DNA from: Escherichia coli
GTDB taxonomy: Bacteria > Pseudomonadota > Gammaproteobacteria > Enterobacterales > Enterobacteriaceae
Strand: one strand, 5' to 3'
Assembly: GCF_022846255.1 (NCBI RefSeq)
Contig: NZ_AP025682.1
DNA: 64,000 nucleotides
The notes below the pieces were generated by a model. That model did not search any database, was not told the DNA's origin, and saw nothing but the letters and a program-made list of their open reading frames with translations. Within the stretch, counting starts at the first letter, position 1, and each line of letters starts with the position of its first letter. A program made the position numbers and the translations under genes. Positions 7,540 through 62,904 of this stretch are shown in pieces.

Positions 7540-7549
7540 AAGAGCACCT

Positions 7550-18650: not shown

Positions 18651-18669
18651 TAGACAGGAGACAGTCACA

Positions 18670-31411: not shown

Positions 31412-34400
31412 CAGGCGCTCTCCTTATCTTGTGCAAAGAACGCCCAGGCCACTTTGTAGTCGTCCTCGCGATCTGGCTTGATAAACGGAGCCTGCCAAGT
31501 GACGGTACGGCGCTCGCCTTCGTCGCTGCGGGTATAGTCATCAAAGGTGACGCTGACGGTACCGGTTTGCAGATGTTTGACATCATCCCAACCGATGGCT
31601 TGATCGGTGCAGTCACCGCCGGTCCACTCTGGGCTATCGACGTTAAAGACAAAGCCGTTTTTCAGGTCAGCTTTACGCGCGGTGCGAGGCAAGCCAACGC
31701 CCACCAGCCCTTTGCTTGGGGTAAAGATAATGCGACCGTTTTGATCGTACCAGGTATCCGCTTCGTACTGGCGCATCACCGGGAACTGTACACGGTAAAT
31801 GGTAAGCAGTTCTTCGAGGGTTAACCCCAGCGCCTGCGCCACCAGTACGTCGATTTCCACCAGCGCCTGACGGCGACTGTAGTCAGAGCGTAAGGCGCAG
31901 TTACGCTGCCACTCTGGGGTCAGATTGGTGAAGAAATCTTGTGGGAGCTGCGGGAGATCGCGGCTCCAGCGTTGGGTATTGAAGTCTGGGGTGTAGCAGG
32001 ATTGCCAAAGGCCAGCATATACATCATTTACAGAATTTAATGATAATACTAAGCAGTATAATAATGCCTTTTGTCTCGGATTGAATAATACGTATGAGAA
32101 ACAATCAAGCATCTGATGTAAGTTTGCCTTGCCAGTAGATTTACAAATAAAATCAAAAGGTAAAGAAAAACACATACCTGAATGTTCAAGTAACAGATTC
32201 TGTGAGCTATAGCAGTAAGAACGTACTGCGTTCATGTGACTTATTTCTGGCGGATAAATAGCACTAATTAGTGTACGTTCCCCCGATTGAGCCAACATGG
32301 CTCTGATAGCTAAGCGATAATAATCTGTTACCTTCTTCGGTTCATCTTCAGCCAGTTCAGTCCATGTAACGCATGGAGTACGTTTGGCATACTCCTGTGC
32401 ATCACATGCCGGAATATAGTTAGTGCGCGGCAGATAGTCATCAGGCAGAGTTAGCAAGTCGAGGTTATCGTATGCTTTATTCGTGTCGCAGATCTCTTTG
32501 GGTGTGTTATAGAAAGGATTGCCGACAAAGAAATGTGGACCAGATACAACCCATTGTGAAGGATTTTTTGGAAACTGTGTTTTTCGCAAAATTGTGCCGT
32601 CATTTTGTGCATTAACTTCATTCCAATGCTGGGTTGCATAATAGCTGTTTGTAAAATCATTTAATCTCTTAGGTTGACGAGCAAACTTCTCAAGCACCGC
32701 TACCAATTGTTTAGAATGTAATGCAGGAAGACGAGCTTGTAGGGCCGGCGTGTCGTCAGAATCATAGAGACGAGCAAATAGTCCTAATTTTATAAAATCA
32801 ATAGTCACAATTCGATCTAAATGTCCCTGAAAATTCCATTTAGCTTTGGCCTTTCCATCAATCTCAGCTTCTTCTTTAATGCCTGGAACGTTACCATCAC
32901 CTTTATGTTCGAAACATGCATCAATTGTTTGAGGAATAAACAAATTTACTATGTTCGAAAATACTGGCATTTGAGAAAATGGACCATAGATATTGATGCT
33001 GAATCTAGTGTGATTATCCACCTCAGCAAATAGTTTTATTTCATTCGCAAACTGAAAATGAGCCCTCAACCTCGGATAAACTGATGCACGCATCTGCCCA
33101 CCAGTAGGATCATCATAAATCCCTTCCGGGTGCAGGAGTCCTGTCACACCTCTTTCCGCCCCCAAACGCCACGCCTGCGGCAGGAAGCATTTATACAAAT
33201 TCGCTTTTTGACCTGCTAGTACCGGGTAGTTCTGCTGCGCATTGAGGAAGTTTTGCATCCCTTCACAGCCTTCATACTCGCTGCGCCAGGCCGCTTCCAG
33301 CGCCGGGATCTGGTTAAAGGTATCAATACGCAACGTGGCCAGCTTCGATGCACTCAGCTTACGCAGCACAAATTCCGGCTCGTAATCACCCAGCACGCCC
33401 GCTTCCTGCCATTCCACTTTCAGCCACGGCGGGTTTCCGAGCATCAGGTCAAAACCGCCGCGCTCGGCAAACAAGTCGCAGAACTCCAGATCCCAGTGGA
33501 AGAAACGGTACTGCTTTCTCAGGGCATCGACAATCGCCAGACGCGGCAAATGACGGAACAACACCTCGGTTTTCAGACGACCTGCGCCGGAAAACAGTGA
33601 AGACTCTTCTCGCAGCAGACCTTCTTCGGCAAACAGATCGCCGGTGGTGTGCTCCGCAACTTCAGTGACTTTTTCCGTGATTACAATCCCGTCGAGCAGG
33701 GTTTCAATCTCAAACAACCAGGTGCCGCGATCCGGTAGCTCATCGGCTTTGTCGATCGGCCAGAACCACAGCGCGCACCAGTAGTCCATTACCCAACGCA
33801 GCTTCTGGTAGGCACTGTTATCTTCAAGACGACCACTGAAGGTTTCATCTTTACTGCTCAGCGAAGAACGCGTCTGCTCGCTGTTTTCTGCCGGCCACAC
33901 CGGGTAGCTGTCGGCGGTTTTCAGACGTTCTGCTTTAAGTTGCTGGCGATAGGTGTTCCACAGAGCTTCCACCTTTTCGCTGATACGCTGCACATCAGCA
34001 ATCTCATGCCCGGCAAAGCTTTTAATAAACTCTTTGCGCCAGCTGTCCAGGGCTTTGAAGTCATCCGGATAACGCTGCTTAACAGTTTTATCGCTGTAGT
34101 TAGCCATACCGCCGTCGGGCAGCAGGAAGTGAAAAATCTGCGTCTCTTCACGCGGCGTGTTCATCGCCAGTTCAACCGGCTCGCTGTTAAGCCAGCTCGG
34201 ATCTTTGGCTTTTTTGTAGGTCAGTTCACTCTTGTTAAATACCTGACGGCGCGCGCCCACCAGCGAGTTACCGCAGTGCAGCTGGTAACCAAACCACGGT
34301 ACAAACGCATCGCCACTAATGGCGTTCAGCCACAGTGACACTTCCGCCAGTTCCACCGCCACCGGGTTTAAGTCCACGCCGAAAACGTTGTTGTCGGCAA

Positions 34401-39429: not shown

Positions 39430-42400
39430 TTATCCAGCGATAATATAACTCCTAAGGTCATTACCCGGGGCAACAGCTCGCGCTCGCGTGTTTGCCAGCA
39501 GTTCAACTTGCTGCGGTACTCGCAGGGAAAAATCAAAGAAGGTATCTTCAATACAGCGCCAGTAGCTAAGCCCCATGTCGAGCAGGACATAATGCTGACT
39601 GCCATCGCTGAAGGTGACTGTCAGTTCTCGTCCATGCTCCGTACTCTGGTTATCCCCCGTTAACCAGCTAATTGCTCCCGGCCACGCTGGCCCCAGATAT
39701 CCTTCTTCAAGTAAAGTGGTCACAACCTGCTGACGATCTTCCTCATTAAGCCACGCGTTATAGAGAGCGTCGTGTTGGCGAGAGTTGTAATCCAATTTTT
39801 TGACGCAAACAGTGAGGCTGGCGCGTTCCGCCATTCCCTGTCCAACCAGCTCGGTTAAGATTTCACCTAACAAACGCGCCGTGAATGGGCTATTAAGATA
39901 ACGATCGCTGTACTCAACATGCGTTATCTCTTTGTGGCGGGTAAATGCCTGCTTCCAGCCAGCGTGCTGTTGCGTGACTAACGACCAGAAACGCGAACCA
40001 AAACCTTCCAGCGGCCCGTCCAGTTGCTCGCAGAGGTTGATGCGCACCGCCCCGGTGGGTAAGGCGGGCAGTAAATCTTCTGCACTTAAGGTCTGACCCG
40101 AGAAGGTTTTTCCGGACGTTCCTTTAAGTGTCACTACTGGTGAGGACGCACTTTGTCCCCATAATTCACCAGGTGCAACGGTAGCGCTGTCGTCTGCGGC
40201 CCACTGTTGGCTTTGCCCTTCGCGAGTCACCTGCGCAAGCCAGCGTCCCTTTCCTTGCATGAGTTGCGCAGTGGCAATGGATTTCACTTGTAAGCGTCCT
40301 CCCGGCATCGCCGCCAACGCGGAAAGCTGATGTCTGGAGCTATCTGTTAAGTTTGCCAACGGCGTGGCCACCAGCAACTCAACATGCCCACCGGAGGAGG
40401 CAAACTGGAGCAACTCTTTAAATAATGGCCATTGGGCAAAATCCCACTGTTCCTGCGGCCCCGCAAGAACCAGCGAGCAGGAGTCATAAATCTCGCTGTT
40501 CAGGCATTGCGCAATACGTAAACTCAGCGGGTTAGTTTCAACCCGGCTACCATCGCCGAAGTACTGATATTCTGGCGCGAGGTTAAGTCGCTGCAACCGT
40601 ACATTGGTAAGCAGGGTTAATGCATGGTGACGATCTAATCTGTTGACATAATGCTGACTGTCGTAGCTGAGCAAGCAGTGGTGACAGAATTTATCGCAAC
40701 TGCAATCGAGCAATTTTCTGGCGTAATTAAAGACATCAGCCCAATGGTCGATCAATTGCACTGCATAACCTGCACCACCCGCATTATTGTCGTAAATGAA
40801 GATGGAATATCCGGTATAGCCATTGATATCGCGCGCTTGCTGCGTCGTCACGCCCAGCTCAGTATTTTCGATACCCAATTTATGCGCTAACCCTTCACGC
40901 AAAGCGACCGCAAGGGATCGCGCGGCAACCTCATCACGGATCAACAGGCCATTATCATCATTGAGTTGCAGCTCAACCATATCTGTACGACTGCTATACC
41001 CCAACCAAAGATCTTTATGCACATGACCGTGGCACAATTTATTGCTCCCCTGACGATCGTTACTGCCCCCTCGCAACAGGTAATGCGTATTTTCCCTCTC
41101 TGGGTTCTTAAGATTTTCAGGGGTACGCTGGGGTTGATTTTGAGATTCTGCCCGACCACATGAGAGGCAAATTGCGTAGCCGTGCCCAAATTCCCCTTCA
41201 CTGAAGTGGAACAATTCCCCACTATGGCTAAAACGGTAACGTCCTAACCCAGCATCGGGTAAAGAAACCCACACCGAAGACGGTACAAGAACACGTGGAT
41301 CTTTCCAGGGAAGTTGTGCAGGCATGGATACATCATTATGCGCCTGATAACGGATATCTGTCGCAAAACCAACAGGCTGTAAATAACGCTTCACATCAAG
41401 TTGCTGTATATCCGCTTTGCAGTGACTACATTCGACAGGACGGGTAGTACTGGTTGCCCCCGCACCACATTTACGACAATGCCAGAACCACGGAATATGA
41501 TGATCGCCTGACAGCTCCTGCCCGCTGGCAAGTACCTTGCCAAGCATAATGCCCGAGGAACGATATACTTTTCCGCCCAATACCACATCTGCACCTGGAG
41601 CATACTCGCGTAATGCTGTAGGCAAATCACGGCTGGGCAATTTTTCAATACGACGAGAAAAGCTTTCTCCCCCTTCATTAGGGTCAGCCTGAGTAGCTTT
41701 TATTGCGCGACGTTTTTCCAGCTCATCTGCCGTCAGATAATTGAAATTGACGACGCCAACCGGGAAACCATGCCCCGGCAGGAACGCTTCACTAATGAGT
41801 TTAGAAAACAGATATGCACCGCGATAATCACGAAGCTGATAAGCGATGGCTTTACCTGCTGGCGTTTCTTCCCACGCGCTGTTATCCGCCTTCAACGCTT
41901 CGATATTTTCCAACAGTATCGCAAGTTGGCTTCTCCAGCGGATATCAACCTGCTGCATCATTGCTTGTGTGCGGGTCAAGAGCTGGGTTGCCGTCAATGA
42001 CATCAGGACGGTTCCCTGAGTAAGGCGTTTAAGTTTATCCGCCAGCTGATCGGCCTGGTTATTTAACCAATGGAGAAAACGAAGACACTGGCTCTCATCA
42101 CCTTCAAAGAACCATTTGCAACTCAGTTTTGTCGCATCAGGAACTTCAGCTCGTAAAAACAGACCTAAAACCAGGGCATTAACATGTCGTTGAACAATAC
42201 TGCTGCTCCCAAAACGAACCCGTGGCGCACTGGCAGTAGTGTTGAACGCCCAGAGGGGGGCTTTGAATACCTCCATTCCATGCGCCGTGTTTTTACATAA
42301 CGTAATGGCAGCAGATGCACTCTCTCCACGTCGACCCGCGCGGCCTGCACGCTGCAAATAATTTGCCGGAGCTGGAGGAACGTTGTTCATTGCCACCAAA

Positions 42401-45400
42401 CTCATACCACCAATGTCCACCCCCATCTCCATGGTCGTGGAGCAGTTCAGCACATTAACTTTGCCTGACTTAAATTGTTTTTCATTAAACTGGTTCTGCT
42501 CAGGCGTTCTCTGCGCAGAGTGTTCCTCCAGACGATACCAGCTATCTTTCAGGGCCAGTCGGTCGCTGCGAGTAGACCATAATCCTTCCTCGCGGGCATG
42601 TTGAATCAGCGCATTACTTTCCAGCCACTCCAGACGTTCTTCTCGGGCGATTTCTCCACCACCAGACAAACGCCAGTGACGTACAGGAAGCTCAGGCATT
42701 TCAATCAACACTGCTTTTTCAGGTGCAATTTCTTTGCTACCCGGCAAATACGGAGAGTATCCCAGTAACGTGACGTCTAACGCACGTCGAGTATAGGGGC
42801 AACGCCACACTTGCTTTGGACTGTAAAATTCAGCTTGTTGTTTAATATCCAGCTGATAACCCGACTCAAACTGACGTAAGCAGGGTCGAATTGCATCCCA
42901 GACCTCAATCATTAAGTGGTTAACTAACGATTTCCAGTGAGCCTGCTCAGGTTGTATTGCCGGAAAGACTGCAATTAATAGCTTAATGACCCGGTTATAA
43001 TGGCGATCGCGTATTTGTGGCCAAAGTTGATCACGTTTCTGCCCTTTGTTTTTTTTATCTGGACCCTGGAGCATTTTTACCGGGAAACGAGCCCCCATCC
43101 AGCGAGGGTATTGCTCGTTTTCGTAAAAAACGGCACTGTTTTCACGTATAAAGAAATCAAGAGTAATCTTCAATAAATTACGCCATTCCGCTAATTGCTT
43201 ATCGGGATCGGGTAATAATGTCTTCCAGTCCTGCGGGCAGGTTGTAACTTTATCAATAAATGGATAGTGAATGGCTACCAGACCCAGACTTTCGAGGGTC
43301 CAGGCATTTTTAGGGCGGCGACCAAACTCACTGTATAAACAAAAATCTGCAAACTGTTGTTTAGTAAGATCAAGCCCAGACAATTCTTTAAAACTGCCTC
43401 TCATTCTATCGGCAAGGTCCACACTGCCAACCAGCTGTTCAGACAGTGTTTGCCATGACATGGTTTTCTTCTGCTGATTGCCAGAGTTAGCCTGGAGTAT
43501 TTGCATCGCTTCAGCATGATCCGGGCTTAAGGAACTCACCATCGGCTCGATAATTTTAAGTGCCTGAATGTCCGCCGGGCTAAGCTCTTCATTAGCAACC
43601 ATCGCTTTTTTCAGCGCGTCAATAGAGTTTTTTAAAGGAAGGATAGAAAACTGGGTAATAAAACTCTCTAACAATGCGCAGTGTGCCGGGCTGAGCTTTG
43701 CTGATGGCTCATTAATATTGGCCAACTCCTGGTAACAAAGAGCTCGCAACGTCGCTTTATCGGCATCCTGCTGTAAGCGGGCAGAAATGCGGGCAGTGCC
43801 CTGACGTGAATCCGTAAAGGTGAGCAGACGTCGACCATTAAACGGTCCTAACTGCTCTTCTCTTGTCTGCGGTAATGGTGAAAACTCCAGCAGAGTAGGA
43901 ATAATTTCATTTAAAAAAAAGGGCGCGCCAAGTCGAAGCGGACGGAATAAAGGATTATTTTTTCGTTGGGTGTCACCACAGCAAACACAAGCAAAGGAAT
44001 TATTACGTCCCTCACCTCGAGATTCCGGTCTTAACAGGTTTATTTCATAGTGCTTTTGCGCTTCACTATCAATTTTCCCCGCCGTCGTTTCTTCCAGAGA
44101 AATGATATATTTTTCACCATCGATCGCAATCAGACGATCAAATTGAGAGTTATTGTCTAATTCGTCGTTGTCTTCATCTTCAGAATAAACATCTACATCA
44201 AGAGCAAATTCATCCACTTCGGCAGCGGCGGGTTGCGCTACCAACCAGTTCGTTCCATCACCGCGCACCTCCTCTTTGGCAGACAAATAAGCTGAACCAC
44301 ACCCGGAGCAACGTAAAACTTCAAATACCGGCGCACCACAGTCACAATATTGGCGCTGCTCAAACCATACCTGACCAAATGGCCAGTCACTCTGATTTAA
44401 TTCATGCGCTTTATGTGAGCATTGTTTGTTTGAACATGCCCATAGACCCGCCAGTGTTCTGATAAACCCATGCATACGTAATGGCGTAAAAGCCAGTTCA
44501 CCTTCTCGCGATCTCGCCATTAGGTCGAGGAGTTGCAGTAACTCACGGTGATTAATATCTGGCCAGGTTCTTCTGGCAACATTGAGCAACTCACTCAAAC
44601 GTACTGCCTGCCGTCCGGGATGAGTTAACGCCTGACGCAATTGCTGGGCCACACGGTAATGACAAAGCTGTTGGTAAAGATCCTGAGGGCTCAAAGATTT
44701 AAGAGAAGTTAAAGATGTGGGATATTCATGACGAATCAGCGACTCCGATACCCGCGGTATTTGTCGATAGCCGCGAACCACTTTGACATCACGTTCTGTA
44801 ACGCCCGCAAGATCAGCGACAAATTTAGCAAGCTCCTTATTACCTTCAGGAGAGTCTTCACCAATAGTGGCAGAGGTCGCGATAATCTGCACAGGTTTAT
44901 CTGTGCCAGGTCCAACATTGAAAGCCTGCATAACACGACGTAAAAGCAGCGCTAACTCAGCAGCCTGAGAACCAATATAACTATGGGCTTCATCCAGGAC
45001 GATATACTTTAACATCCCCTGAGACTTTTCGATGATTGGGGCATCTTTACGACGAATCAGCATATATTCCAGCATGGTGGTATTCGTCACCATGATGGAA
45101 GGTGGTGCTTCGTAAATGGCTTCCCGACTCAAAGCTTGTTCAGGTACTTTCAACTGATCTTCCTGAACTTCGTATTTGGTATGCCGGGTTTCGCCATTAT
45201 ATAGCGCGAAGCGTATTTTCCCCTTAAATCCGCGCGTCCATTCGCGAAGCCGCTCCTGTTGGCTGTTAATTAATGCATTTAACGGATACAAGAAAATAGC
45301 TTGTGTCCCTGTTAGTGACTGACGGGTCGATTTTTGCTGACGAATAAGATCTTCCAGAACCGGTACCATAAAGCATTCTGTTTTCCCGGATCCCGTACCG

Positions 45401-45753
45401 CTGCTCACTAACAAGGATTTTTTGTCTTCCAGAATCGTTCGCCACGCCGTAAGTTGATGACGAAATGGCACCGGCGCTTTGCTCAATGCATCAACCAGCG
45501 GGCTGGAAATTAGCTTGTCCCGCAAATCCTCCATTGTTTCATCCGCAGGCATCCAGCCGAACGTGCTTTCGAATACCGGGTCTGCAAGCAGTGACCCCTC
45601 CTGACCGGGAGGCTGGAAATATTGTGATTCCAGATAATGAGTCAACGACTTGCTCCGCAATGCCAACTGACTTACCACCGACCTCACCGCGCGCTGATGA
45701 AGCTGATTTAGAAGTGGCGCATAATGCAGTTGCTGAACGTCCATCAATGACAT
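39430..45753 (-). CDS. druE: Druantia DruE-like giant helicase (DEAD/DEAH + DUF1998), 2107 aa
   Basis: Motif I SGTGSGKTECFMVP, motif II VLDEAHSY, motif VI QRAGRAGRRG, Zn-ribbon CxxC clusters, DUF1998-like IFIYDNNAGGAGYA; 10-bp overlap with the upstream 1119-aa gene. Confidence 0.7.
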   Translation of the reverse strand: MSLMDVQQLHYAPLLNQLHQRAVRSVVSQLALRSKSLTHYLESQYFQPPGQEGSLLADPVFESTFGWMPADETMEDLRDKLISSPLVDALSKAPVPFRHQLTAWRTILEDKKSLLVSSGTGSGKTECFMVPVLEDLIRQQKSTRQSLTGTQAIFLYPLNALINSQQERLREWTRGFKGKIRFALYNGETRHTKYEVQEDQLKVPEQALSREAIYEAPPSIMVTNTTMLEYMLIRRKDAPIIEKSQGMLKYIVLDEAHSYIGSQAAELALLLRRVMQAFNVGPGTDKPVQIIATSATIGEDSPEGNKELAKFVADLAGVTERDVKVVRGYRQIPRVSESLIRHEYPTSLTSLKSLSPQDLYQQLCHYRVAQQLRQALTHPGRQAVRLSELLNVARRTWPDINHRELLQLLDLMARSREGELAFTPLRMHGFIRTLAGLWACSNKQCSHKAHELNQSDWPFGQVWFEQRQYCDCGAPVFEVLRCSGCGSAYLSAKEEVRGDGTNWLVAQPAAAEVDEFALDVDVYSEDEDNDELDNNSQFDRLIAIDGEKYIISLEETTAGKIDSEAQKHYEINLLRPESRGEGRNNSFACVCCGDTQRKNNPLFRPLRLGAPFFLNEIIPTLLEFSPLPQTREEQLGPFNGRRLLTFTDSRQGTARISARLQQDADKATLRALCYQELANINEPSAKLSPAHCALLESFITQFSILPLKNSIDALKKAMVANEELSPADIQALKIIEPMVSSLSPDHAEAMQILQANSGNQQKKTMSWQTLSEQLVGSVDLADRMRGSFKELSGLDLTKQQFADFCLYSEFGRRPKNAWTLESLGLVAIHYPFIDKVTTCPQDWKTLLPDPDKQLAEWRNLLKITLDFFIRENSAVFYENEQYPRWMGARFPVKMLQGPDKKNKGQKRDQLWPQIRDRHYNRVIKLLIAVFPAIQPEQAHWKSLVNHLMIEVWDAIRPCLRQFESGYQLDIKQQAEFYSPKQVWRCPYTRRALDVTLLGYSPYLPGSKEIAPEKAVLIEMPELPVRHWRLSGGGEIAREERLEWLESNALIQHAREEGLWSTRSDRLALKDSWYRLEEHSAQRTPEQNQFNEKQFKSGKVNVLNCSTTMEMGVDIGGMSLVAMNNVPPAPANYLQRAGRAGRRGESASAAITLCKNTAHGMEVFKAPLWAFNTTASAPRVRFGSSSIVQRHVNALVLGLFLRAEVPDATKLSCKWFFEGDESQCLRFLHWLNNQADQLADKLKRLTQGTVLMSLTATQLLTRTQAMMQQVDIRWRSQLAILLENIEALKADNSAWEETPAGKAIAYQLRDYRGAYLFSKLISEAFLPGHGFPVGVVNFNYLTADELEKRRAIKATQADPNEGGESFSRRIEKLPSRDLPTALREYAPGADVVLGGKVYRSSGIMLGKVLASGQELSGDHHIPWFWHCRKCGAGATSTTRPVECSHCKADIQQLDVKRYLQPVGFATDIRYQAHNDVSMPAQLPWKDPRVLVPSSVWVSLPDAGLGRYRFSHSGELFHFSEGEFGHGYAICLSCGRAESQNQPQRTPENLKNPERENTHYLLRGGSNDRQGSNKLCHGHVHKDLWLGYSSRTDMVELQLNDDNGLLIRDEVAARSLAVALREGLAHKLGIENTELGVTTQQARDINGYTGYSIFIYDNNAGGAGYAVQLIDHWADVFNYARKLLDCSCDKFCHHCLLSYDSQHYVNRLDRHHALTLLTNVRLQRLNLAPEYQYFGDGSRVETNPLSLRIAQCLNSEIYDSCSLVLAGPQEQWDFAQWPLFKELLQFASSGGHVELLVATPLANLTDSSRHQLSALAAMPGGRLQVKSIATAQLMQGKGRWLAQVTREGQSQQWAADDSATVAPGELWGQSASSPVVTLKGTSGKTFSGQTLSAEDLLPALPTGAVRINLCEQLDGPLEGFGSRFWSLVTQQHAGWKQAFTRHKEITHVEYSDRYLNSPFTARLLGEILTELVGQGMAERASLTVCVKKLDYNSRQHDALYNAWLNEEDRQQVVTTLLEEGYLGPAWPGAISWLTGDNQSTEHGRELTVTFSDGSQHYVLLDMGLSYWRCIEDTFFDFSLRVPQQVELLANTRARAVAPGNDLRSYIIAG

Positions 45754-48700
45754 ACTCCTGCTTGTTCAAAATAATATTGATAGATTACCCCTAATTGCTG
45801 CGGGGCTTGCTGATAGTGGAATTCAAAAAGCGCAGACAGTTGATGTATCAAGTTATTATCTTTTTGGGTTAACAGCGCTGCGACTAACATCAAATTAAAA
45901 CGTTTTTCAAGCCGTGAGTGATATTTATCTTCAATCCAAAGCTTATTAAAAACAGATTTTAACTCTGGAGTAATAGCACTAGACCAAAGTTCTTTAGGGA
46001 AGATACTGATACGCCCAAAGCTGTCGGGGTTCCTTAATAGCATCTGTTTAGCTTCATTAAACTGCTCACGACTAACAGTTGGCAAGACATTACAACCGGC
46101 TGGTAGGAGTTCGCCATATGTAAGTAACATATTCGCAATGGGAGCCAGACGACGATCGATATGTGCACGATGGTTCATAAAAGCAATAAAGGGTTGCAAT
46201 ATATGTAATGCTAATGTTTTATCGTTAATCTGTTTTTCCAGATAAGCCCAACACTTTTGAAAAACATCTTTCCAGATTGAAACGGGAATCCATCCCCATG
46301 AAAAGGGTAATTCTTCCTGTATATCATAAATCGTATCGCTATCACCAGAAAGACATGATGATATTAACAACTGAACAACTACGCGGTAATTACTCGAAAT
46401 ACCTCTGAACAAATCCAGATCCAGCAAGGATAAGCCATTATTCATTTTGTATTTCTTAATATACTCCGTTAATAAACAGCAATAATTTTGCAAAGGATTG
46501 TTATCTATTTCAAAAATTAGCTCATTAAAATATTTTTTTCGCTGTTCGGAATCCGCTTCGCATAGAGCATTAAGTAATAAATCATTTGTCTGTAATACAG
46601 GTAGCCCCCATTTAATTACTGGTGCAATGCGAGCTGTACCATCAAGTTTCCCCACAATTAACCATGGGCTATCCTGAACATTCAGAGCTGAAAGATCATA
46701 AGCAAATTCATCTTTTTTTAGCAACGATATGTGTAAGCCAGGATCCTTAAGAGAAATAGCATCAACAACCAGCTCGTCTATTCTATTTGCAGGAAAAACA
46801 ACAGAATTTTTTATATCAACCAGTAACCCTTGATCGTGTTCAATAAAACTACCATCGTAGCGTTTAATACTGAGTGTTGCTTTATCCTTTCCAAATCTGT
46901 CAGAGTAAAAATCAACACATAATGTACTATTGCTGTTCCATGCACATGCCAGCATAGCATTTAGCAAATTATAGTTCTCATAAAGTGAAATTTGTTTTAA
47001 TTTGTCATTGCATCCTGATAAAAGAGGAAGGTCGGCATGTAAATAACGGAATTTTTCAGCTACTGGATTTTCATCCAACAACTCGATATTAAGATATCCT
47101 CTTCCAGCACAAGATATGGTTAACAACTCAGCATCTATTCCATGCAAATGCGCTATAGATGCCACACCATCAAAATGAACAGAACCATCATGAGTTACAA
47201 ATCGGCCACCGCTAACCGGCTTAGGTAATAATAGTTTAAGATTAGAACCATCTTTCCAGGAGACCCGTAAATCAACGGTATTTTCCAGCATCTCCGATGA
47301 ATTATAATAAATAGCACACTCGTTTTGTGAATAATCGGACTTAAGTGTTACTTTTTCATTATTTGAATATTTGTCAATTCTAGTATCCGTTATACCAGAA
47401 AGCATTATGATGCCTTGCTGAGCACTCTCAGGTATAATATTAATATCGAAGTCTGTTGGTAAAACTACAACTTTACCGCTAAATAAAACCTCATCATTAA
47501 CTATTCGTCTGACTTCTATCTGTCCTTTTGGCATTTCTGATGCGACAGAATACCAGGCATTGTTACCTGAACGAATGGAACGCCAAAAAAGTTCTTTCTC
47601 CGGTACAATGCCATATTGCAGATCCTTTTTCCAACCGATCTTCGGCCAGGCTCGATGGACAGGATAATCCGATTTAACCAGTTCAACTTCTGTCGATTTA
47701 ATATAATATTCAATCGCAGAATCATAAAGTTGCTGGGTGCGAATTGTACAAACTGCACCATCATGTAAAACAACGCTAAATACTCCACTTATTTTAGTTA
47801 AGCTGCGTTCACTGTTTTTCAGCAACCTTGGGATATCAAACTCACCTTCTCCACTAATATCTAAATGGCTATTTTTCGGTAGCGAAATAAACAGAGCATT
47901 TAGCCTGGAACTCACAGACCCCATACCGACAAGTTTTAGCTGCGATTCACTCTCATTCATCGCTTCAAAAACCCAGGGGAGTTCTTCAGTAAGTTCATAA
48001 CCGCCTTTTGGAATTGTGTGGCCTAACAGAATTGGACCTTCATGAAGCGACAACGAGATTTCGGCCATTGCATCTGCACCAGAGAGCTTTTGCATCGCAA
48101 TAGGTAATAACTCGACCCGCCAATCTTGCTGCTCATAACGGCTTAGCATTGCCAACCTTGCCCCGCCATTTCTCCATTTTCCTGAAATGATGAGTCGGGT
48201 CTGCTCCGGCTGAATATTGCATTCAAACAAAGAGGTTAACTGTTCTGTACGCATTATGGCCGGGAATCGGAACCGGGCATCACAATACCAACTGTCATCA
48301 ACATCGACCCAGATTCTTTCAACCTGAAGACTACTTGCACTGCGTATTTCAGAAGATTGAGAAAGTAATCGCCTTACAATCTCTGCAGCATTCGCTTCGG
48401 GGAGAACGAGTGGAAGTTGAAGATGCCAGTCTGGAGAGAGCTTACGTAATGCAGAAACGGGATCACTGCTTTGAGGTGGATGCTCACTAAGTAATCGGCA
48501 GAGAGTCTCGCAGAATTCACCGGCTATTTCATAGACCAGTTCGTTTTGCATTGTGACAGGAATCGTATCGCCTAATTCTTGTGCAATTTTAGCGGCAGGA
48601 TATTGAGATGCTTGCCCACGAAGCGCCTGATATATCCTTCTGAAATAGGTAATCAAATAACCGCTCTCATTTTCAATCATGCGGATAGGTAAACCACCTT

Positions 48701-49103
48701 CACAAGCCAGTGTATGCAGATAACCCGAAGCTTGCCCCAGGTTTCTTATCTTTCTTTTCCAGTAGCGAATGCCATCATTAACCAGCTTCTGTTGATGAAC
48801 ATACGGAACTTTCCAGTCAATAGAATCTAAAATTGTGTCCCATTTAGGGTGTCCGACCGTATGAGTCCGGCGGATAAACTCTGCGGCATATATGCTAAAT
48901 AGAACATCGCTATAGGAAATGAATATCGTTCTTGGATAACTACGGGGGGCATATGTACGCAGTAGTTCTGCCAAACTTTCGTACTCTGTATCAGTACAAC
49001 GGTAAGCATATAACGCCCGTCCATCAGCTCCGGATAATGAACGGCGACTAAAAAACATGTTAAGCCATTGCAAAAGTGGGTTAACTGGAGTTTTCACAAG
49101 CAA
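45744..49103 (-). CDS. druH: Large protein without recognisable motifs, consistent with Druantia type III DruH (1119 aa)
   Basis: Assigned only by size, absence of known motifs and tight coupling upstream of the DruE-like gene. Confidence 0.5.
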   Translation of the reverse strand: MLVKTPVNPLLQWLNMFFSRRSLSGADGRALYAYRCTDTEYESLAELLRTYAPRSYPRTIFISYSDVLFSIYAAEFIRRTHTVGHPKWDTILDSIDWKVPYVHQQKLVNDGIRYWKRKIRNLGQASGYLHTLACEGGLPIRMIENESGYLITYFRRIYQALRGQASQYPAAKIAQELGDTIPVTMQNELVYEIAGEFCETLCRLLSEHPPQSSDPVSALRKLSPDWHLQLPLVLPEANAAEIVRRLLSQSSEIRSASSLQVERIWVDVDDSWYCDARFRFPAIMRTEQLTSLFECNIQPEQTRLIISGKWRNGGARLAMLSRYEQQDWRVELLPIAMQKLSGADAMAEISLSLHEGPILLGHTIPKGGYELTEELPWVFEAMNESESQLKLVGMGSVSSRLNALFISLPKNSHLDISGEGEFDIPRLLKNSERSLTKISGVFSVVLHDGAVCTIRTQQLYDSAIEYYIKSTEVELVKSDYPVHRAWPKIGWKKDLQYGIVPEKELFWRSIRSGNNAWYSVASEMPKGQIEVRRIVNDEVLFSGKVVVLPTDFDINIIPESAQQGIIMLSGITDTRIDKYSNNEKVTLKSDYSQNECAIYYNSSEMLENTVDLRVSWKDGSNLKLLLPKPVSGGRFVTHDGSVHFDGVASIAHLHGIDAELLTISCAGRGYLNIELLDENPVAEKFRYLHADLPLLSGCNDKLKQISLYENYNLLNAMLACAWNSNSTLCVDFYSDRFGKDKATLSIKRYDGSFIEHDQGLLVDIKNSVVFPANRIDELVVDAISLKDPGLHISLLKKDEFAYDLSALNVQDSPWLIVGKLDGTARIAPVIKWGLPVLQTNDLLLNALCEADSEQRKKYFNELIFEIDNNPLQNYCCLLTEYIKKYKMNNGLSLLDLDLFRGISSNYRVVVQLLISSCLSGDSDTIYDIQEELPFSWGWIPVSIWKDVFQKCWAYLEKQINDKTLALHILQPFIAFMNHRAHIDRRLAPIANMLLTYGELLPAGCNVLPTVSREQFNEAKQMLLRNPDSFGRISIFPKELWSSAITPELKSVFNKLWIEDKYHSRLEKRFNLMLVAALLTQKDNNLIHQLSALFEFHYQQAPQQLGVIYQYYFEQAGVCH

Positions 49104-49314
49104 CCTGCCTTCCTTTGATACAATTCGTAACAGGTTACTATCATCATAAAAAAGCTCAACCCGATGAACTCGCTAAAAATGAGACAAATCATTTATATCT
49201 CGAAAAAACTTGTTACAATCATGAGCGCTACACCGAACTTAACCATATAAATTATGTGTGTTTTGTTTATTTTTTAAACAATTACAACTATCCATTATTT
49301 ACACAGGTATCAAA

Positions 49315-50967
49315 ATGTTAGCGCAGCTTTTTGAGCAGTTGTTTCAATCGATAGACTCTACACTGATCACCAATATTTTCATCTGGGCTGTTATATTCGT
49401 ATTTTTATCAGCGTGGTGGTGTGACAAAAAAAATATACATAGTAAGTTTAGAGAATATGCTCCAACCTTAATGGGGGCATTAGGTATTCTGGGTACTTTC
49501 ATTGGTATTATTATTGGGTTACTCAATTTTAATACTGAAAGTATTGATACCAGCATCCCCGTATTATTAGGCGGCCTAAAAACAGCATTCATTACAAGCA
49601 TTGTAGGTATGTTTTTTGCCATTTTATTTAATGGAATGGATGCTTTCTTTTTTGCCAATAAACGAAGTGCGTTAGCAGAAAATAACCCTGAATCTGTTAC
49701 ACCTGAACATATCTATCATGAATTAAAAGAGCAGAACCAGACTCTGACTAAATTAGTCTCGGGTATTAACGGTGATAGTGAAGGTTCTCTTATTGCTCAA
49801 ATAAAATTACTACGTACTGAGATTAGCGATTCCTCGCAGGCACAATTAGCTAATCACACTCATTTCAGTAATAAGCTTTGGGAACAACTTGAACAATTTG
49901 CAGATCTAATGGCAAAAGGTGCTACAGAACAAATTATTGATGCTTTACGACAAGTCATTATTGATTTTAATGAAAATTTAACTGAACAGTTTGGTGAAAA
50001 CTTTAAAGCACTTGATGCCTCTGTAAAAAAACTTGTTGAGTGGCAGGAAAATTATAAAACGCAAGTTGAGCTGATGTCAGAACAATATCAACAAAGTGTC
50101 GAGTCTCTGGTTGAAACAAAAACTGCGGTTGCCGGGATTTGGGAAGAATGTAAAGAAATTCCTCTGGCTATGTCTGAACTGCGTGAAGTGCTTCAGGTGA
50201 ACCAACATCAAATCAGCGAACTCTCCCGCCATTTAGAAACCTTTGTCGCCATCCGCGATAAAGCTACAACCGTATTACCTGAAATACAGAACAAAATGGC
50301 TGAAGTGGGTGAACTGCTGAAATCCGGAGCTGCAAATGTTAGTGCATCTCTTGAGCAAACCAGCCAGCAAATACTTCTTAATGCAGATTCAATGCGCGTG
50401 GCCCTGGATGAAGGTACCGAAGGATTCAGACAATCGGTTACCCAAACACAACAAGCATTTGCCTCGATGGCACATGATGTCAGCAATTCCTCCGAAACTC
50501 TAACCAGCACGTTAGGTGAAACAATTACTGAAATGAAACAAAGTGGTGAAGAATTCCTGAAGTCACTAGAGTCGCACTCGAAAGAATTGCATAGAAATAT
50601 GGAACAAAATACGACTAATGTAATTGATATGTTCAGTAAGACTGGTGAAAAGATTAACCATCAACTATCCAGTAATGCCGATAATATGTTTGATTCAATC
50701 CAGACATCATTTGATAAGGCAAGTGCAGGGCTGACTTCTCAAGTCAGAGAATCAATTGAAAAATTTGCTCTATCCATCAACGAGCAGTTACATGCTTTTG
50801 AGCAAGCAACTGAACGTGAGATGAACCGTGAAATGCAATCATTAGGTAATGCTCTGCTTTCAATCAGCAAAGGTTTTGTCGGTAACTATGAAAAACTTAT
50901 TAAAGATTACCAAATAATTATGGGGCAGTTACAAGCATTAATTTCTGCTAATAAACATCGAGGGTAA
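49315..50967 (+). CDS. zorA: Zorya ZorA (MotA/ExbB-like proton-channel subunit with long coiled-coil tail), ~550 aa from MLAQLFEQ
   Basis: N-terminal transmembrane helices (IFIWAVIFVFLSAWW, LMGALGILGTFIGIIIGL, AFITSIVGMFFAILF) followed by ~400 aa of heptad-like, low-complexity helical sequence; zorB and zorE follow. Confidence 0.75.
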   Translation: MLAQLFEQLFQSIDSTLITNIFIWAVIFVFLSAWWCDKKNIHSKFREYAPTLMGALGILGTFIGIIIGLLNFNTESIDTSIPVLLGGLKTAFITSIVGMFFAILFNGMDAFFFANKRSALAENNPESVTPEHIYHELKEQNQTLTKLVSGINGDSEGSLIAQIKLLRTEISDSSQAQLANHTHFSNKLWEQLEQFADLMAKGATEQIIDALRQVIIDFNENLTEQFGENFKALDASVKKLVEWQENYKTQVELMSEQYQQSVESLVETKTAVAGIWEECKEIPLAMSELREVLQVNQHQISELSRHLETFVAIRDKATTVLPEIQNKMAEVGELLKSGAANVSASLEQTSQQILLNADSMRVALDEGTEGFRQSVTQTQQAFASMAHDVSNSSETLTSTLGETITEMKQSGEEFLKSLESHSKELHRNMEQNTTNVIDMFSKTGEKINHQLSSNADNMFDSIQTSFDKASAGLTSQVRESIEKFALSINEQLHAFEQATEREMNREMQSLGNALLSISKGFVGNYEKLIKDYQIIMGQLQALISANKHRG

Positions 50968-50973
50968 TCGATC

Positions 50974-51681
50974 ATGGATAAGATTATAGGGAAACAATTA
51001 CCTAAAAAAGATCAAGATAATGAACACTGGGTATCCATGTCAGACCTAATGGCAGGGCTGATGATGGTTTTTATGTTCATATCTATTGCTTATATGCACT
51101 ACGTACGTATTGAAAAAGAAAAAATTAAAGAAGTTGCCGTAGCCTACGAGAATGCTCAGTTACAGCTTTATAATGCTCTGGATATTGAGTTTGCAAAGGA
51201 TTTGCAAGACTGGGATGCAGAGATCGATAAGCAGACTCTGGAGGTTCGATTTAAATCACCGGATGTTTTATTTGGCTTAGGAAGCATAGAGCTTAAACCA
51301 AAGTTTAAACTCATTCTTGACGACTTCTTTCCTCGCTACCTAAAAGTTCTTGATAATTATCAAGAACATATTACTGAAGTCCGCATTGAAGGTCACACAA
51401 GTACTGACTGGACTGGAACAACGAATCCTGATATTGCTTATTTTAATAATATGGCACTATCACAAGGTCGTACACGTGCAGTATTACAATACGTTTATGA
51501 TATAAAAAATATCGCGACACACCAACAATGGGTTAAAAGTAAATTTGCCGCAGTAGGTTATTCATCTGCACATCCCATTCTTGATAAAACCGGCAAGGAG
51601 GATCCTAATCGCTCTCGTCGTGTCACCTTCAAAGTTGTAACAAATGCCGAGTTGCAGATTAGAAAGATTATTCAGGAGTAA
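50974..51681 (+). CDS. zorB: Zorya ZorB (MotB-like with OmpA-type peptidoglycan-binding domain), 235 aa
   Basis: Single N-terminal TM helix (LMAGLMMVFMFISIAYM) and OmpA/MotB-like C-terminal domain (RIEGHTSTDW..., ...LSQGRTRAV..., RRVTF). Confidence 0.8.
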   Translation: MDKIIGKQLPKKDQDNEHWVSMSDLMAGLMMVFMFISIAYMHYVRIEKEKIKEVAVAYENAQLQLYNALDIEFAKDLQDWDAEIDKQTLEVRFKSPDVLFGLGSIELKPKFKLILDDFFPRYLKVLDNYQEHITEVRIEGHTSTDWTGTTNPDIAYFNNMALSQGRTRAVLQYVYDIKNIATHQQWVKSKFAAVGYSSAHPILDKTGKEDPNRSRRVTFKVVTNAELQIRKIIQE

Positions 51682-51684
51682 GAG

Positions 51685-52788
51685 ATGAAATTATCTATCG
51701 ACATTTCAGAACTTATTCAATTAGGGAAGAAAATGTTACCAGAAGGAGTCGATTTTTTTCTGGATGAATCCCCTATTGACTTTGATCCTATAGATATTGA
51801 GTTATCCACGGGTAAAGAAGTTAGTATCGAAGATCTTGACCCTGGTAGCGGGCTTATCTCTTATCATGGCCGCCAGGTTCTTTTATATATTAGGGACCAT
51901 TCAGGGCGTTATGATGCGGCTATCATCGATGGCGAAAAAGGAAAACGTTTTCATATTGCCTGGTGCAGAACTCTTGATGAAATGCGCCATAAAAATCGAT
52001 TTGAAAGGTATCATGCAACTAACCGCATAGATGGTTTATTCGAAATTGATGATGGTTCAGGTCGGAGCCAGGATGTTGATTTACGGGTATGTATGAATTG
52101 TCTGGAACGACTTAATTACAAAGGAAGTATTGATAAACAAAGGAAAAGAGAGATTTTTAAATCATTCTCATTAAATGAGTTTTTTTCAGATTATAGTACC
52201 TGTTTTCGTCATATGCCTAAGGGTATCTATGACAAAACAAATAGTGGGTATGTCGAAAACTGGAAAGATATATCAAAATCAATACGAGAAAAGGCCAAGT
52301 ATACTTGTAATGATTGTGGTGTGAATTTATCAACCGCCAAAAACTTGTGCCATGTCCATCATAAAAATGGCATCAAATATGATAATCACCATGAAAACCT
52401 TCTTGTTCTGTGTAAGGATTGCCATCGTAAACAGCCCCTCCATGAAGGTATATTCGTTACCCAAGCTGAGATGGCTATCATTCAACGTTTACGTTCCCAA
52501 CAAGGGTTATTAAAAGCCGAATCCTGGAATGAAATATATGACCTGACTGATCCATCAGTACATGGTGATATTAATATGATGCAACATAAAGGCTTTCAAC
52601 CTCCTGTTCCTGGGTTAGATCTTCAAAACTCAGAACATGAAATTATTGCAACCGTAGAAGCAGCATGGCCAGGCCTTAAAATTGCAGTTAACCTTACTCC
52701 CGCCGAAGTCGAAGGATGGAGAATATATACCGTGGGTGAGCTGGTTAAAGAAATACAAACAGGAGCCTTTACGTCAGCAACGTTGTAA
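51685..52788 (+). CDS. zorE: Zorya type II ZorE (HNH endonuclease), 367 aa
   Basis: HNH signature CNDCG...HVHHKNG...NLLVLCKDCH; third gene directly after zorA/zorB. Confidence 0.75.
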   Translation: MKLSIDISELIQLGKKMLPEGVDFFLDESPIDFDPIDIELSTGKEVSIEDLDPGSGLISYHGRQVLLYIRDHSGRYDAAIIDGEKGKRFHIAWCRTLDEMRHKNRFERYHATNRIDGLFEIDDGSGRSQDVDLRVCMNCLERLNYKGSIDKQRKREIFKSFSLNEFFSDYSTCFRHMPKGIYDKTNSGYVENWKDISKSIREKAKYTCNDCGVNLSTAKNLCHVHHKNGIKYDNHHENLLVLCKDCHRKQPLHEGIFVTQAEMAIIQRLRSQQGLLKAESWNEIYDLTDPSVHGDINMMQHKGFQPPVPGLDLQNSEHEIIATVEAAWPGLKIAVNLTPAEVEGWRIYTVGELVKEIQTGAFTSATL

Positions 52789-52835: not shown

Positions 52836-52998
52836 ATTTTCCTGATTTGTGACTCAAATTACAAAAGTCGTTTATGGCATAACTTGTCTGTTTTTTTTGG
52901 TGTAATAGGTATAAAGGCATATGCTATGGTTAGCCTTATATTTAAAACTTTCCTCATACGGGTGAAGGTTAAAGATTGGTAGATAGGTTACAGTCACA

Positions 52999-53607
52999 AT
53001 GAATAAAGCAATAACGGTGCTTGCTATAATGATGGCTTCATTTTCCGTAAATGCGTATGTATTACCGGAAACGCCTGTGCCATTTAAAAGTGGTACCGGA
53101 GCAATTGATAACAACACTGTCTACATTGGTTTAGGTAGCGCAGGTACGGCATGGTACAAGCTGGAGAAACAGACCAAAGATAAAAAATGGACAGCGTTAG
53201 CTGCATTTCCTGGTGGACCGAGAGATCAAGCAACTTCTGCATTTATTGATGGCAATCTGTATGTGTTTGACGGCATTGGCAAAAACAGTGAGGGCTTGAC
53301 TCAGGTATTTAATGACGTTCACAAATACAACCTCAAAACCAATAGCTGGGTTAAATTGATGTCGCACGCGCCGATGGGCATGGCGGGTCATGTGACATTT
53401 GTACACAACGGCAAGGCTTATGTTACTGGCGGTGTTAACCAGAATATCTTCAATGGCTATTTTGAAGATCTTAACGAAGCTGGAAAAGATTCAACATACC
53501 GAACGCCGGAGAACTGGACGACGACACCACGAAGCAGTCATTTCAGTCGGGGGATGATTGTAGACAAATTTGTTGACGCTATTTTGCGGTTTTGGCGTGA
53601 AGGGTGA
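52999..53607 (+). pseudogene. Chimeric nanM'-'nanS remnant (first ~165 codons of a nanM homologue fused to the last ~37 codons of a nanS homologue)
   Basis: 52999-53493 aligns at roughly nine in ten bases (by eye) with nanM 18670-19166; 53494-53607 aligns with the nanS 3' end 20695-20821 minus a short deletion; a GGTATA-type motif lies ~95 bp upstream. Confidence 0.75.
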
Positions 53608-53661
53608 GCATTCATTAATTTGATTTATTTGCATCCATCAACGCTTTTAACTGCTCCGGCG
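53494..53661. repeat. Right copy of the diverged direct repeat bounding the island
   Basis: Matches 20695-20875 (see left copy); similarity ends at ...ctgctccggcg in both copies. Confidence 0.7.
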
Positions 53662-54193: not shown

Positions 54194-54333
54194 CCCATAA
54201 ATGGATAGCTTCGATGATATACCGCCGCGGAAGATGATCGGGGAGTTTATTCATGGAGAATGTCCTTATACGTTCTCAGAACAGGCAGCAAAAAAACAAA
54301 TGAGATCAAGGTAATATATCTTCACTTGCAGGC

Positions 54334-55263: not shown

Positions 55264-55373
55264 GGTTGATAATACCGCGCCCCTATAATCTTGCCATCTC
55301 GTGCATTGAGATGTTAAAAGCTACAAATGTTCTCCCTATTTTTCAATGTAGACATTTATAGCAATATCAAAAT

Positions 55374-57554: not shown

Positions 57555-57566
57555 CTCATATCAACC

Positions 57567-62003: not shown

Positions 62004-62005
62004 AC

Positions 62006-62902: not shown

Positions 62903-62904
62903 AA

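What the first reader, a model, noticed from the sequence alone, without database searches (positions are those of the whole stretch)
39430..52788. Compositional mosaic within the island (qualitative)
By eye, zorA/zorB/zorE and druH are markedly AT-rich, while druE and the SNF2/MTase/helicase operon look closer to typical E. coli composition or GC-richer. If real, even the tightly coupled druH-druE pair and the adjacent operons have different evolutionary histories. I did not compute GC values.
Basis: seen in the sequence. Interest (0 to 1): 0.3.

Follow-up and report, generated by a model that had tools for sequence, protein, structure and literature searches.

The report
Base-composition patchwork in known defence array

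Summary
Observation confirmed. Window 39430-52788 holds Druantia III (druE, druH) and Zorya II (zorA, zorB, zorE). To the left lies the four-gene ARMADA II operon. Together they form the published array of O-island 172 / SpLE6.

GC and GC3 by gene:
- ARMADA II: GC 0.50-0.53, GC3 0.48-0.58, indistinguishable from E. coli core genes.
- druE: 0.488 / 0.461.
- druH: 0.399 / 0.325.
- zorA, zorB, zorE: 0.375-0.383 / 0.30-0.32, which is 5 to 7 SD below core genes.

The strongest change point between 20 and 58 kb falls at 45720, at the druH stop / druE start overlap.

Interpretation partly supported.
- The modules do have separate histories. Synonymous divergence is discordant between modules, Zorya II occurs alone elsewhere, and armB carries a swapped AT-rich cassette.
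- druH and druE do not. Their distance matrices co-vary (Mantel r 0.97), and one recombination tract spans most of druH together with druE.
- In 35 distant Druantia III loci the two genes have equal GC (difference 0.000 ± 0.015).
- The offset is confined to one subclade carried by Enterobacterales and by hosts not identified here. It persists there although synonymous sites are near saturation.

The contrast therefore looks like a maintained, gene-specific composition. Its cause is unresolved. Low novelty.

The parts
39430..45753 (-). druE, the Druantia III YprA-like helicase-nuclease. Composition is intermediate: GC 0.488, GC3 0.461. The likely true start is the ATG at 45744, which overlaps the druH stop as TGATG and has an AGGAG 10 nt upstream.
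   Evidence: PADLOC DruE3 2179 bits; Pfam DEAD, Helicase_C and MZB. GC, junction sequence. RefSeq start in Sakai.
45744..49103 (-). druH, the Druantia III YjiT-family protein and presumed sensor. AT-rich: GC 0.399, GC3 0.325. GC3 is lowest (0.25-0.30) in codons 400-1000.
   Evidence: PADLOC DruH3 2538 bits over the full length. GC. Diversity among E. coli haplotypes is higher at 45959-47458.
45720..45720 (.). The strongest compositional change point of the island: GC 0.490 to the left, 0.400 to the right.
   Evidence: Segmentation LRT chi-square 279, against a random-sequence maximum of 10.5.
49104..49314 (.). Divergent druH / zorA intergenic region, GC 0.31. It presumably holds both promoters. 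Homology to the stand-alone Zorya II module begins just to its right, at 49305.
   Evidence: hit H52 starts at query base 48. The promoters are inferred, not tested.
49315..50967 (+). zorA, the Zorya II MotA-like subunit. GC 0.375. The ORF finder's GTG at 49258 is probably upstream of the real start.
   Evidence: PADLOC ZorA2 1001 bits, matching from residue 20. RefSeq zorA2 length is 550 aa.
50974..51681 (+). zorB, the Zorya II MotB/OmpA-like subunit. GC 0.376.
51685..52788 (+). zorE, the Zorya II HNH nuclease with a C-terminal extension. GC 0.383.
   Evidence: The extension is described in PMC13192584.
22959..39206 (-). ARMADA II operon: armA 36348-39206, armB 31411-36345, armC 25070-31411, armD 22959-25073. 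Composition is host-like: GC 0.50-0.53, tetranucleotide correlation with core 0.95.
   Evidence: Naming follows bioRxiv 10.1101/2025.09.15.676423.
32016..33060 (-). AT-rich hypervariable cassette inside armB, GC 0.38 against flanks of 0.54-0.57. Six E. coli alleles are only 56-84% identical to each other, and all are AT-rich.

Best explanation
The stretch is the Druantia III plus Zorya II part of the known Zorya II - Druantia III - ARMADA II anti-phage array, which is carried by mobile elements. Its base composition really is a patchwork, and two different things produce the patches.

1. The array is assembled from modules that keep being exchanged by recombination. Zorya II is an AT-rich module that also circulates alone. 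ARMADA II is compositionally indistinguishable from enterobacterial core DNA, except for a swapped AT-rich cassette in its methyltransferase gene, which I infer to determine target specificity.

2. The sharpest step, at the druH/druE junction, lies inside a pair of genes that have been inherited together. Here the difference is a gene-specific composition. It arose in one subclade, carried by Enterobacterales and by hosts not identified here, and has been held there while synonymous sites turned over almost completely. It is not a leftover of separate origins.

Shown: the composition, the co-inheritance of druH and druE, the module-level discordance, and the persistence of the local GC profile.

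Inferred: that the profile is actively maintained. What maintains it is open. Candidates are binding of the silencing protein H-NS around the divergent promoter, weak codon selection on a fast-evolving sensor gene, or exchange of variable segments through an AT-rich pool.
For: Composition and boundary.

Identity of the array and its co-travel in about 500 of 5426 E. coli genomes, on chromosomes and plasmids.

Module discordance:
- Divergence at four-fold sites, Yersinia versus Enterobacter arrays: Zorya 0.45-0.62, druH 0.12, druE 0.07, armA 0.24.
- Window versus the Hafnia-type array: Zorya 0.90-1.16, druH 0.60, druE 0.42, armA 0.70.
- Breakpoints near module borders.
- Stand-alone Zorya II with the same GC of 0.38.

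Co-inheritance of druH and druE: Mantel r 0.974 over 38 loci, and published congruent trees.

The offset is specific to one lineage:
- In 35 distant loci the GC difference druH minus druE is 0.000 +/- 0.015.
- In the window it is -0.089 (z -6.1).
- Relatives give -0.05 to -0.12, including L066, where Zorya is not AT-rich, and L067, which has no Zorya.

Persistence:
- GC3 in 100-codon bins correlates at r 0.88 between the window and the Yersinia-type array, although 64% of four-fold sites differ.
- The gradient is still present at the sites that have changed.

Polarised substitutions at third positions are roughly balanced in druH (21 GC-to-AT, 17 AT-to-GC; implied equilibrium GC3 0.27, actual 0.32) and in druE (59 and 52; implied 0.43, actual 0.46).
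Against: - The polarised-substitution test has wide confidence intervals: druH 0.17-0.42, druE 0.34-0.53. Its outgroup is 12-20% diverged.
- Zorya shows a weak excess of AT-to-GC changes (10 versus 21), which fits slow amelioration rather than equilibrium.
- Nucleotide identity between the window and the Hafnia-type array steps up exactly at the druH/druE junction, from 0.81 to 0.92. Four-fold divergence is also somewhat higher in druH, 0.414 +/- 0.026 against 0.320 +/- 0.016. An old exchange of druH within the subclade is therefore not fully excluded.
- No mechanism for maintaining the composition was tested.
Confidence: 0.7

Rival explanations
1. Chimeric operon. druH came from an AT-rich donor, perhaps together with Zorya II, and was joined to a GC-richer druE, so the junction at 45720-45744 is an old recombination scar.
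For: - The sharpest change point of the island sits at the gene junction.
- druH composition resembles that of the neighbouring Zorya genes.
- The offset is absent from 35 distant Druantia III loci.
- Identity to the Hafnia-type array steps up at the junction.
Against: - The DruH and DruE distance matrices co-vary (r 0.974) and the nearest-neighbour order is identical.
- Published trees are congruent, with little mixing of variants.
- Four-fold divergences of the two genes track each other, and one recombination tract spans most of druH together with druE.
- The offset also exists where Zorya is GC-richer (L066: zorA 0.54, druH 0.43, druE 0.56) and where Zorya is absent (L067).
- Synonymous sites are near saturation between array types, so a relic should have faded.
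Confidence: 0.12
2. AT drift of a fast-evolving sensor. DruH evolves quickly under phage-driven selection, which weakens selection on synonymous sites, and the universal GC-to-AT mutation bias then lowers its GC.
For: - DruH is always more diverged than DruE: 63% against 77% amino-acid identity to the Yersinia-type array.
- Within druH, the bins with the lowest GC3 are the most divergent (r 0.62 and 0.49).
- Diversity among E. coli haplotypes is 2 to 3 times higher in the AT-rich half of druH.
- Positive selection in DruH has been published.
- The AT-rich armB cassette is also the hypervariable part of that gene.
Against: - In 35 distant loci DruH is just as much faster-evolving than DruE, yet the GC difference is 0.000 +/- 0.015.
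- Zorya genes are as AT-rich but are conserved, with diversity of 0.002-0.018.
- In druE, divergence and GC3 are uncorrelated or negatively correlated (r -0.05 and -0.53).
Confidence: 0.2
3. Selected AT-richness for xenogeneic silencing. The AT-rich block, comprising druH, the divergent promoter region and Zorya II, is kept AT-rich because H-NS-type proteins bind it and keep these genes at low expression in enterobacterial hosts.
For: - The AT-rich block is centred on a divergent intergenic region with GC 0.31.
- The offset occurs in the arrays whose named hosts are Enterobacterales, which have H-NS according to established knowledge, and not in distant taxa.
- The local GC profile is conserved despite turnover of synonymous sites.
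Against: - No binding or expression data were found or could be generated.
- In L066 the Zorya genes are not AT-rich.
- The AT-rich zone in druH is deepest about 2-3 kb from the promoter, not at it.
Confidence: 0.2
4. No real feature: the differences are ordinary gene-to-gene scatter.
For: Core genes do vary. Adjacent core genes differ in GC3 by 0.045 on average and by up to 0.18.
Against: - druH and Zorya lie 5 to 7 SD from core genes.
- The change point has LRT 279 against a null maximum of 10.5.
- The same pattern is reproduced in five diverged array lineages.
Confidence: 0.01

Closest known systems
Zorya II - Druantia III - ARMADA II array of E. coli O-island 172 / SpLE6 (bioRxiv 10.1101/2025.09.22.677730 and 10.1101/2025.09.15.676423; PMC13192584)
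   Same: Same nine genes in the same order and orientation. The window is 97-98% identical to O157:H7 Sakai ECs_5256 to ECs_5264, in the same position next to nanS, nanM, nanC and fimB.
   Different: Nothing structural. The sharp druH/druE step is not mentioned in the three papers I searched for GC or H-NS terms.
Compositionally atypical genomic islands and their amelioration (established concept; recalled from my own knowledge of Lawrence and Ochman's work)
   Same: AT-rich accessory genes lie next to host-like DNA on a tRNA-associated island.
   Different: The strongest boundary here lies inside a co-inherited, translationally coupled gene pair. The pattern has persisted through near-saturating synonymous divergence, which simple amelioration does not predict.
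Hypervariable, AT-rich target-recognition domains of Type I and Type IIG restriction-modification enzymes (established knowledge)
   Same: The armB cassette at 32016-33060 is a swapped, AT-rich segment within a conserved methyltransferase gene.
   Different: That it determines target specificity is inferred from position and variability only. It was not tested.

Membership tests
Druantia type III | Large YprA-like DruE helicase with DEAD, Helicase_C and MZB/DUF1998 domains | tested here: met
   PADLOC DruE3 2179 bits over residues 9-2105; Pfam DEAD, Helicase_C and MZB
Druantia type III | DruH (YjiT family) directly upstream of druE on the same strand | tested here: met
   PADLOC DruH3 2538 bits over the full length. 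Stop and start overlap as TGATG.
Druantia type III | Protects against phage | not testable with these tools
   Published for near-identical systems from ECOR19 and ATCC 8739
Zorya type II | ZorA (MotA-like), ZorB (OmpA-like) and ZorE (HNH) in one operon | tested here: met
   PADLOC ZorA2 1001 bits, ZorB2 345 bits, ZorE2 585 bits; Pfam MotA_ExbB and OmpA
ARMADA type II | Strict gene order: SNF2/BrxHII-like helicase, PglX-like methyltransferase, YprA-like helicase, GajB-like UvrD helicase | tested here: met
   The order matches the description.
ARMADA type II | RelE-like domain at the N-terminus of ArmD | not tested
   Pfam and PADLOC matches cover only residues from about 240 to 694
Compositionally foreign DNA | GC, GC3 and tetranucleotide signature outside the range of host core genes | tested here: met
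   Met for druH and zorA, zorB, zorE (z -5 to -7; tetranucleotide r 0.58-0.61 against 0.86 +/- 0.02). Borderline for druE. Not met for armA, armB and armC.
Chimeric operon (druH and druE of different ancestry) | Discordant phylogenies or distance patterns of the two genes | tested here: not met
   Mantel r 0.974, 0 of 2000 permutations, same neighbour order. Published trees are congruent.
Modular mosaic array (modules with separate histories) | Synonymous divergence that differs between modules of the same pair of arrays, and modules found alone elsewhere | tested here: met

The most novel reading that the evidence does not exclude
The AT-rich tiles are not historical accidents but a maintained design. 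The tiles are the druH sensor half, the armB cassette and the Zorya module around the divergent promoter. They would be kept AT-rich either because H-NS-type silencing sets the expression of the costly or sensing parts of the array, or because specificity-determining segments are exchanged through a shared AT-rich pool. On this reading the druH/druE junction would be a functional boundary inside a translationally coupled operon.
Probability: 0.2. Interest if true: 0.45.

Novelty: already known. Interest (0 to 1): 0.2.

Why it matters
It matters little for discovery. The genes, their arrangement, their synergy and their modular spread are already published.

The analysis adds a caution and one small puzzle.

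- The caution: a sharp GC step between neighbouring genes is not proof of separate ancestry. Here the strongest step of the island lies inside a pair of genes that demonstrably co-evolve.
- The puzzle: one subclade of this pair has held an offset of 5 to 12 GC points through near-complete turnover of synonymous sites, while 35 other lineages show none.

If the cause were regulatory, for example H-NS silencing of the sensor and Zorya genes, it would bear on how bacteria keep costly defence genes in check.

Tried and rejected
- A first segmentation with a very strict threshold put a boundary at 42811, inside druE. A finer run showed that the dominant boundary is at 45720, so I dropped the coarse result.
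- Polarising substitutions by singleton alleles (method B) gave a strong excess of GC-to-AT changes in every gene. That is expected for young polymorphisms, so I did not use it to compare genes.
- The idea that AT-rich means fast-evolving holds inside druH and for the armB cassette. It fails for druE (r -0.05 and -0.53), for Zorya, and in the distant-clade control.
- Partial druE hits on plasmids first looked like druE occurring in other contexts. They are IS-truncated pseudogenes still attached to ARMADA.
- Literature searches for H-NS, GC content or locus tags of these genes gave nothing usable.
- Raw tetranucleotide correlations of short segments are noisy: the two halves of druH correlate at only 0.41. 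I replaced them with length-matched controls.
- Two tool calls failed on technical grounds and were repeated. One search asked for one base too many. One search was out of frame.
Full report
**What is in the window.**
- The left part is E. coli backbone: uxuB (confirmed by NCBIfam) with two neighbouring reading frames taken by position to be uxuR and uxuA, an apparent fim operon (fimB and fimE confirmed, the rest read by position and size), and nanC, nanM, nanS.
- From about 22 kb onward it is a defence island.
- On the minus strand lie a UvrD/GajB-like helicase (22959-25073), a 2113-aa YprA-like helicase (25070-31411), a Type IIG-like methyltransferase (31411-36345) and an SNF2 helicase (36348-39206).
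- Next on the minus strand come druE (39430-45753) and druH (45744-49103).
- On the plus strand follow zorA, zorB and zorE (49258-52788).
- Beyond these are a nanM fragment, two HNH genes, a PDC-S11 candidate and a type III Wadjet system.
- The four-gene operon is what recent preprints call ARMADA type II (armA to armD). The whole Zorya II - Druantia III - ARMADA II arrangement is the published array of O-island 172 / SpLE6.

- Per-gene GC / GC3: druE 0.488 / 0.461, druH 0.399 / 0.325, zorA 0.375 / 0.309, zorB 0.376 / 0.322, zorE 0.383 / 0.299.
- The ARMADA genes have GC 0.50-0.53 and GC3 0.48-0.58.
- I compared these with 34 core genes from a 50-kb stretch of O157:H7 Sakai (GC3 0.591 +/- 0.052).
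- On that scale armA, armB and armC are ordinary (0.3-0.7 SD below the mean) and druE is low (2.5 SD below). druH and the Zorya genes are extreme (5.1-5.6 SD below in GC3, 6-7 SD below in GC).
- A codon index built on the core genes gives the same ranking.
- Tetranucleotide signatures, normalised for base composition and compared with core chunks of the same length, agree. druH gives r 0.61 and Zorya r 0.58, against 0.86-0.87 +/- 0.02. druE gives 0.81 against 0.91 +/- 0.01, and armA 0.86 against 0.85.
- The whole ARMADA operon correlates with core at 0.95, as well as one half of the core set correlates with the other half.

**Where the boundaries are.**
- Likelihood-ratio segmentation of 20-58 kb puts the strongest change point at 45720. 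Chi-square is 279, against a maximum of 10.5 in random sequences.
- GC is 0.490 to the left of that point and 0.400 to the right.
- The point is about 25 bases from where the druH stop and the druE start overlap (TGATG at 45744, preceded by AGGAG).
- GC3 jumps from 0.36 in the last full 100-codon bin of druH to 0.56 in the first bin of druE.
- Neither gene is uniform. In druH, GC3 is 0.36-0.45 in the first 400 codons and 0.25-0.30 in codons 400-1000. In druE it dips to 0.34-0.44 in the middle and reaches 0.50-0.61 at the C-terminal end.
- A further AT-rich tile lies inside armB at 32016-33060, with GC 0.38 against flanks of 0.54-0.58.

**Do the modules have separate histories? Within E. coli, no.**
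- The ARMADA operon is found in 520 of 5426 complete genomes, druH-druE in 505, and zorA-zorB-zorE in 529.
- The druE-to-zorE block is intact in 502 genomes, on chromosomes and on some plasmids.
- Apparent druE-only hits are IS-truncated pseudogenes that still sit next to ARMADA.

**Over a longer timescale, yes.** Syntenic arrays exist in Hafnia-type, Yersinia, Serratia and Enterobacter genomes.
- Divergence at four-fold degenerate sites differs several-fold between modules of the same two arrays.
- For Yersinia versus Enterobacter it is Zorya 0.45-0.62, druH 0.12, druE 0.07 and armA 0.24.
- For the window versus the Hafnia-type array it is Zorya 0.90-1.16, druH 0.60, druE 0.42 and armA 0.70.
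- In the Yersinia/Enterobacter pair, identity jumps from about 0.7-0.9 to 0.95-0.99 some 130 codons into druH. It falls again just inside armA. This marks a recombination tract covering most of druH together with druE.
- In E. coli E500002, Zorya II stands alone in a type VI secretion island. It is 94.6% identical to window 49305-52751 and has the same GC of 0.38, while its flanks are at 0.51 and 0.44.

**Do druH and druE have separate histories? The evidence says no.**
- Over 38 loci with both genes complete, the DruH and DruE amino-acid distance matrices correlate at r 0.974. None of 2000 permutations reached that value, and the nearest-neighbour order is the same for both proteins.
- This agrees with the published statement that the two trees are strongly congruent, with little mixing of variants.
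- DruH is simply the faster-evolving partner everywhere. Against the Yersinia-type array it is 63% identical where DruE is 77%. Against the most distant loci the figures are about 24% and about 35%.

**Why, then, is there a GC step between them?** A control from distant relatives is informative.
- In 35 Druantia III loci from other phyla and orders, spanning locus GC of 0.38-0.71, the GC difference druH minus druE is 0.000 +/- 0.015. For GC3 it is -0.012 +/- 0.031.
- The window's difference of -0.089 is 6 SD away from that.
- Similar offsets occur only in its relatives: -0.078 (Hafnia-type), -0.055 to -0.059 (Yersinia-type), -0.124 (L066) and -0.050 (L067). A more distant gammaproteobacterial locus, L008, shows none.
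- The offset is therefore not intrinsic to the proteins. A higher evolutionary rate in DruH does not explain it either, because that rate difference exists everywhere.
- It is not tied to an AT-rich Zorya neighbour. In L066 the Zorya genes lie upstream on the same strand and are GC-richer (zorA 0.54), yet druH (0.43) is still far below druE (0.56). L067 has no Zorya at all.

**The pattern looks maintained rather than fading.**
- Between the window and the Yersinia-type array, 64% of four-fold sites differ, which is close to saturation. Even so, GC3 in 100-codon bins correlates at r 0.88 over 53 bins.
- Among only those four-fold sites that differ, the gradient is still present in both lineages. 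In the window it runs from zorB 0.31 and druH 0.42 to druE 0.52 and armA 0.62. In the Yersinia-type array the corresponding values are 0.33, 0.36, 0.39 and 0.44.
- I polarised substitutions among six E. coli haplotypes with the Hafnia-type array as outgroup.
- At third positions druH shows 21 GC-to-AT and 17 AT-to-GC changes, implying an equilibrium GC3 of 0.27 (95% CI 0.17-0.42; actual 0.32).
- druE shows 59 and 52, implying 0.43 (CI 0.34-0.53; actual 0.46).
- Counts are small, and Zorya shows a weak excess of AT-to-GC changes (10 versus 21). This test is supportive, not decisive.

**A recurring theme, with exceptions.**
- The AT-rich tile in armB coincides exactly with a hypervariable cassette. 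Nucleotide diversity among six E. coli haplotypes is 0.33 there, against 0.01-0.03 in most of the rest of the array.
- All six cassette alleles, which are 56-84% identical to each other, are AT-rich (0.38-0.44).
- In druH the AT-rich half has 2 to 3 times the diversity of the N-terminal part. It overlaps and extends beyond the Ig-like domains at residues 257-748, where positive selection has been reported.
- The link does not generalise. Zorya is AT-rich but conserved, and in druE the most divergent C-terminal part is the GC-richest.

**Verdict.**
The operons are separately exchangeable modules, but the druH-druE pair is co-inherited. Its compositional step is a long-standing feature specific to one subclade, and its cause I could not establish.
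- Candidate causes are H-NS-type silencing around the divergent promoter, weakened synonymous selection on a sensor gene, or exchange of variable segments through an AT-rich pool.
- The system itself is already described, and none of the three key preprints I searched discusses its composition. Novelty and interest are low.

Noticed in passing
window 52979-53661: A degenerate second copy of nanM-nanS sits next to zorE. Positions 52979-53495 are 94% identical to the 5' part of nanM (18650-19166), and 53490-53661 are 81.5% identical to the region 20692-20875 at the 3' end of nanS, running just past its stop. The array is therefore bracketed by direct nan repeats. The nanM fragment travels with the array to other chromosomal sites (L073-L075) and is present in Sakai SpLE6.
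   Followed up: partly
window 32016-33060 (inside armB): A hypervariable AT-rich cassette in the ARMADA methyltransferase gene. Six E. coli alleles are only 56-84% identical to each other and all have GC 0.38-0.44, while the flanks are 97-99% conserved at GC 0.54-0.57. It probably determines target specificity.
   Followed up: partly
window 25070-25699 (ArmC C-terminus) and 51685-52788 (ZorE): The last ~90 residues of ArmC share a 57-residue motif with the C-terminal extension of ZorE (40% identity, E 8e-9). PADLOC's ZorE2 model also hits ArmC residues 2021-2096. This is the extension reported to mark Druantia-associated ZorE proteins.
   Followed up: partly
L066 285-13562: In a metagenomic relative (DruH 48% identical), zorA, zorB and zorE lie upstream of druH-druE on the same strand rather than divergently. 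GC declines across them from zorA (0.54) to druH (0.43) and then jumps to druE (0.56).
   Followed up: partly
L001 12001-18240; L002 12001-14067; L003 12002-15343; L074 17501-23815: druE is often damaged while ARMADA stays intact. There are IS66-, IS91- and IS26/IS903-truncated remnants on a chromosome and two plasmids, and an internal stop codon in strain PK8566.
   Followed up: no
window 53615-56372: Three small defence-type genes lie between the nanM fragment and Wadjet. One is an HNH gene (53615-54193). The second is an HNH_2 gene (54334-55263), whose counterpart by position in L076 is annotated as a phosphorothioated-DNA-binding restriction endonuclease. The third is a very AT-rich PDC-S11 candidate (55374-56372, GC 0.354).
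   Followed up: no
window 56499-63909: A type III Wadjet system (jetD, jetC, an unassigned 298-aa gene where jetB is expected, and jetA) on the minus strand, GC 0.48-0.51. jetA appears to run off the window end, since the match begins at position 155 of the model.
   Followed up: no
window 21631-22890: An AT-rich segment (GC 0.37) between nanS and armD holds an unassigned 216-aa reading frame (21795-22445) with no NCBIfam hit. In Sakai this position has an IS4 remnant and ECs_5266 instead.
   Followed up: no
window 7013-7712: Only about 700 bases separate the reading frame taken to be uxuA (5799-7013, identity not checked) from the one taken to be fimH (7712-8623). In E. coli K-12, as I recall, gntP lies between them, so gntP seems to be missing here.
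   Followed up: no
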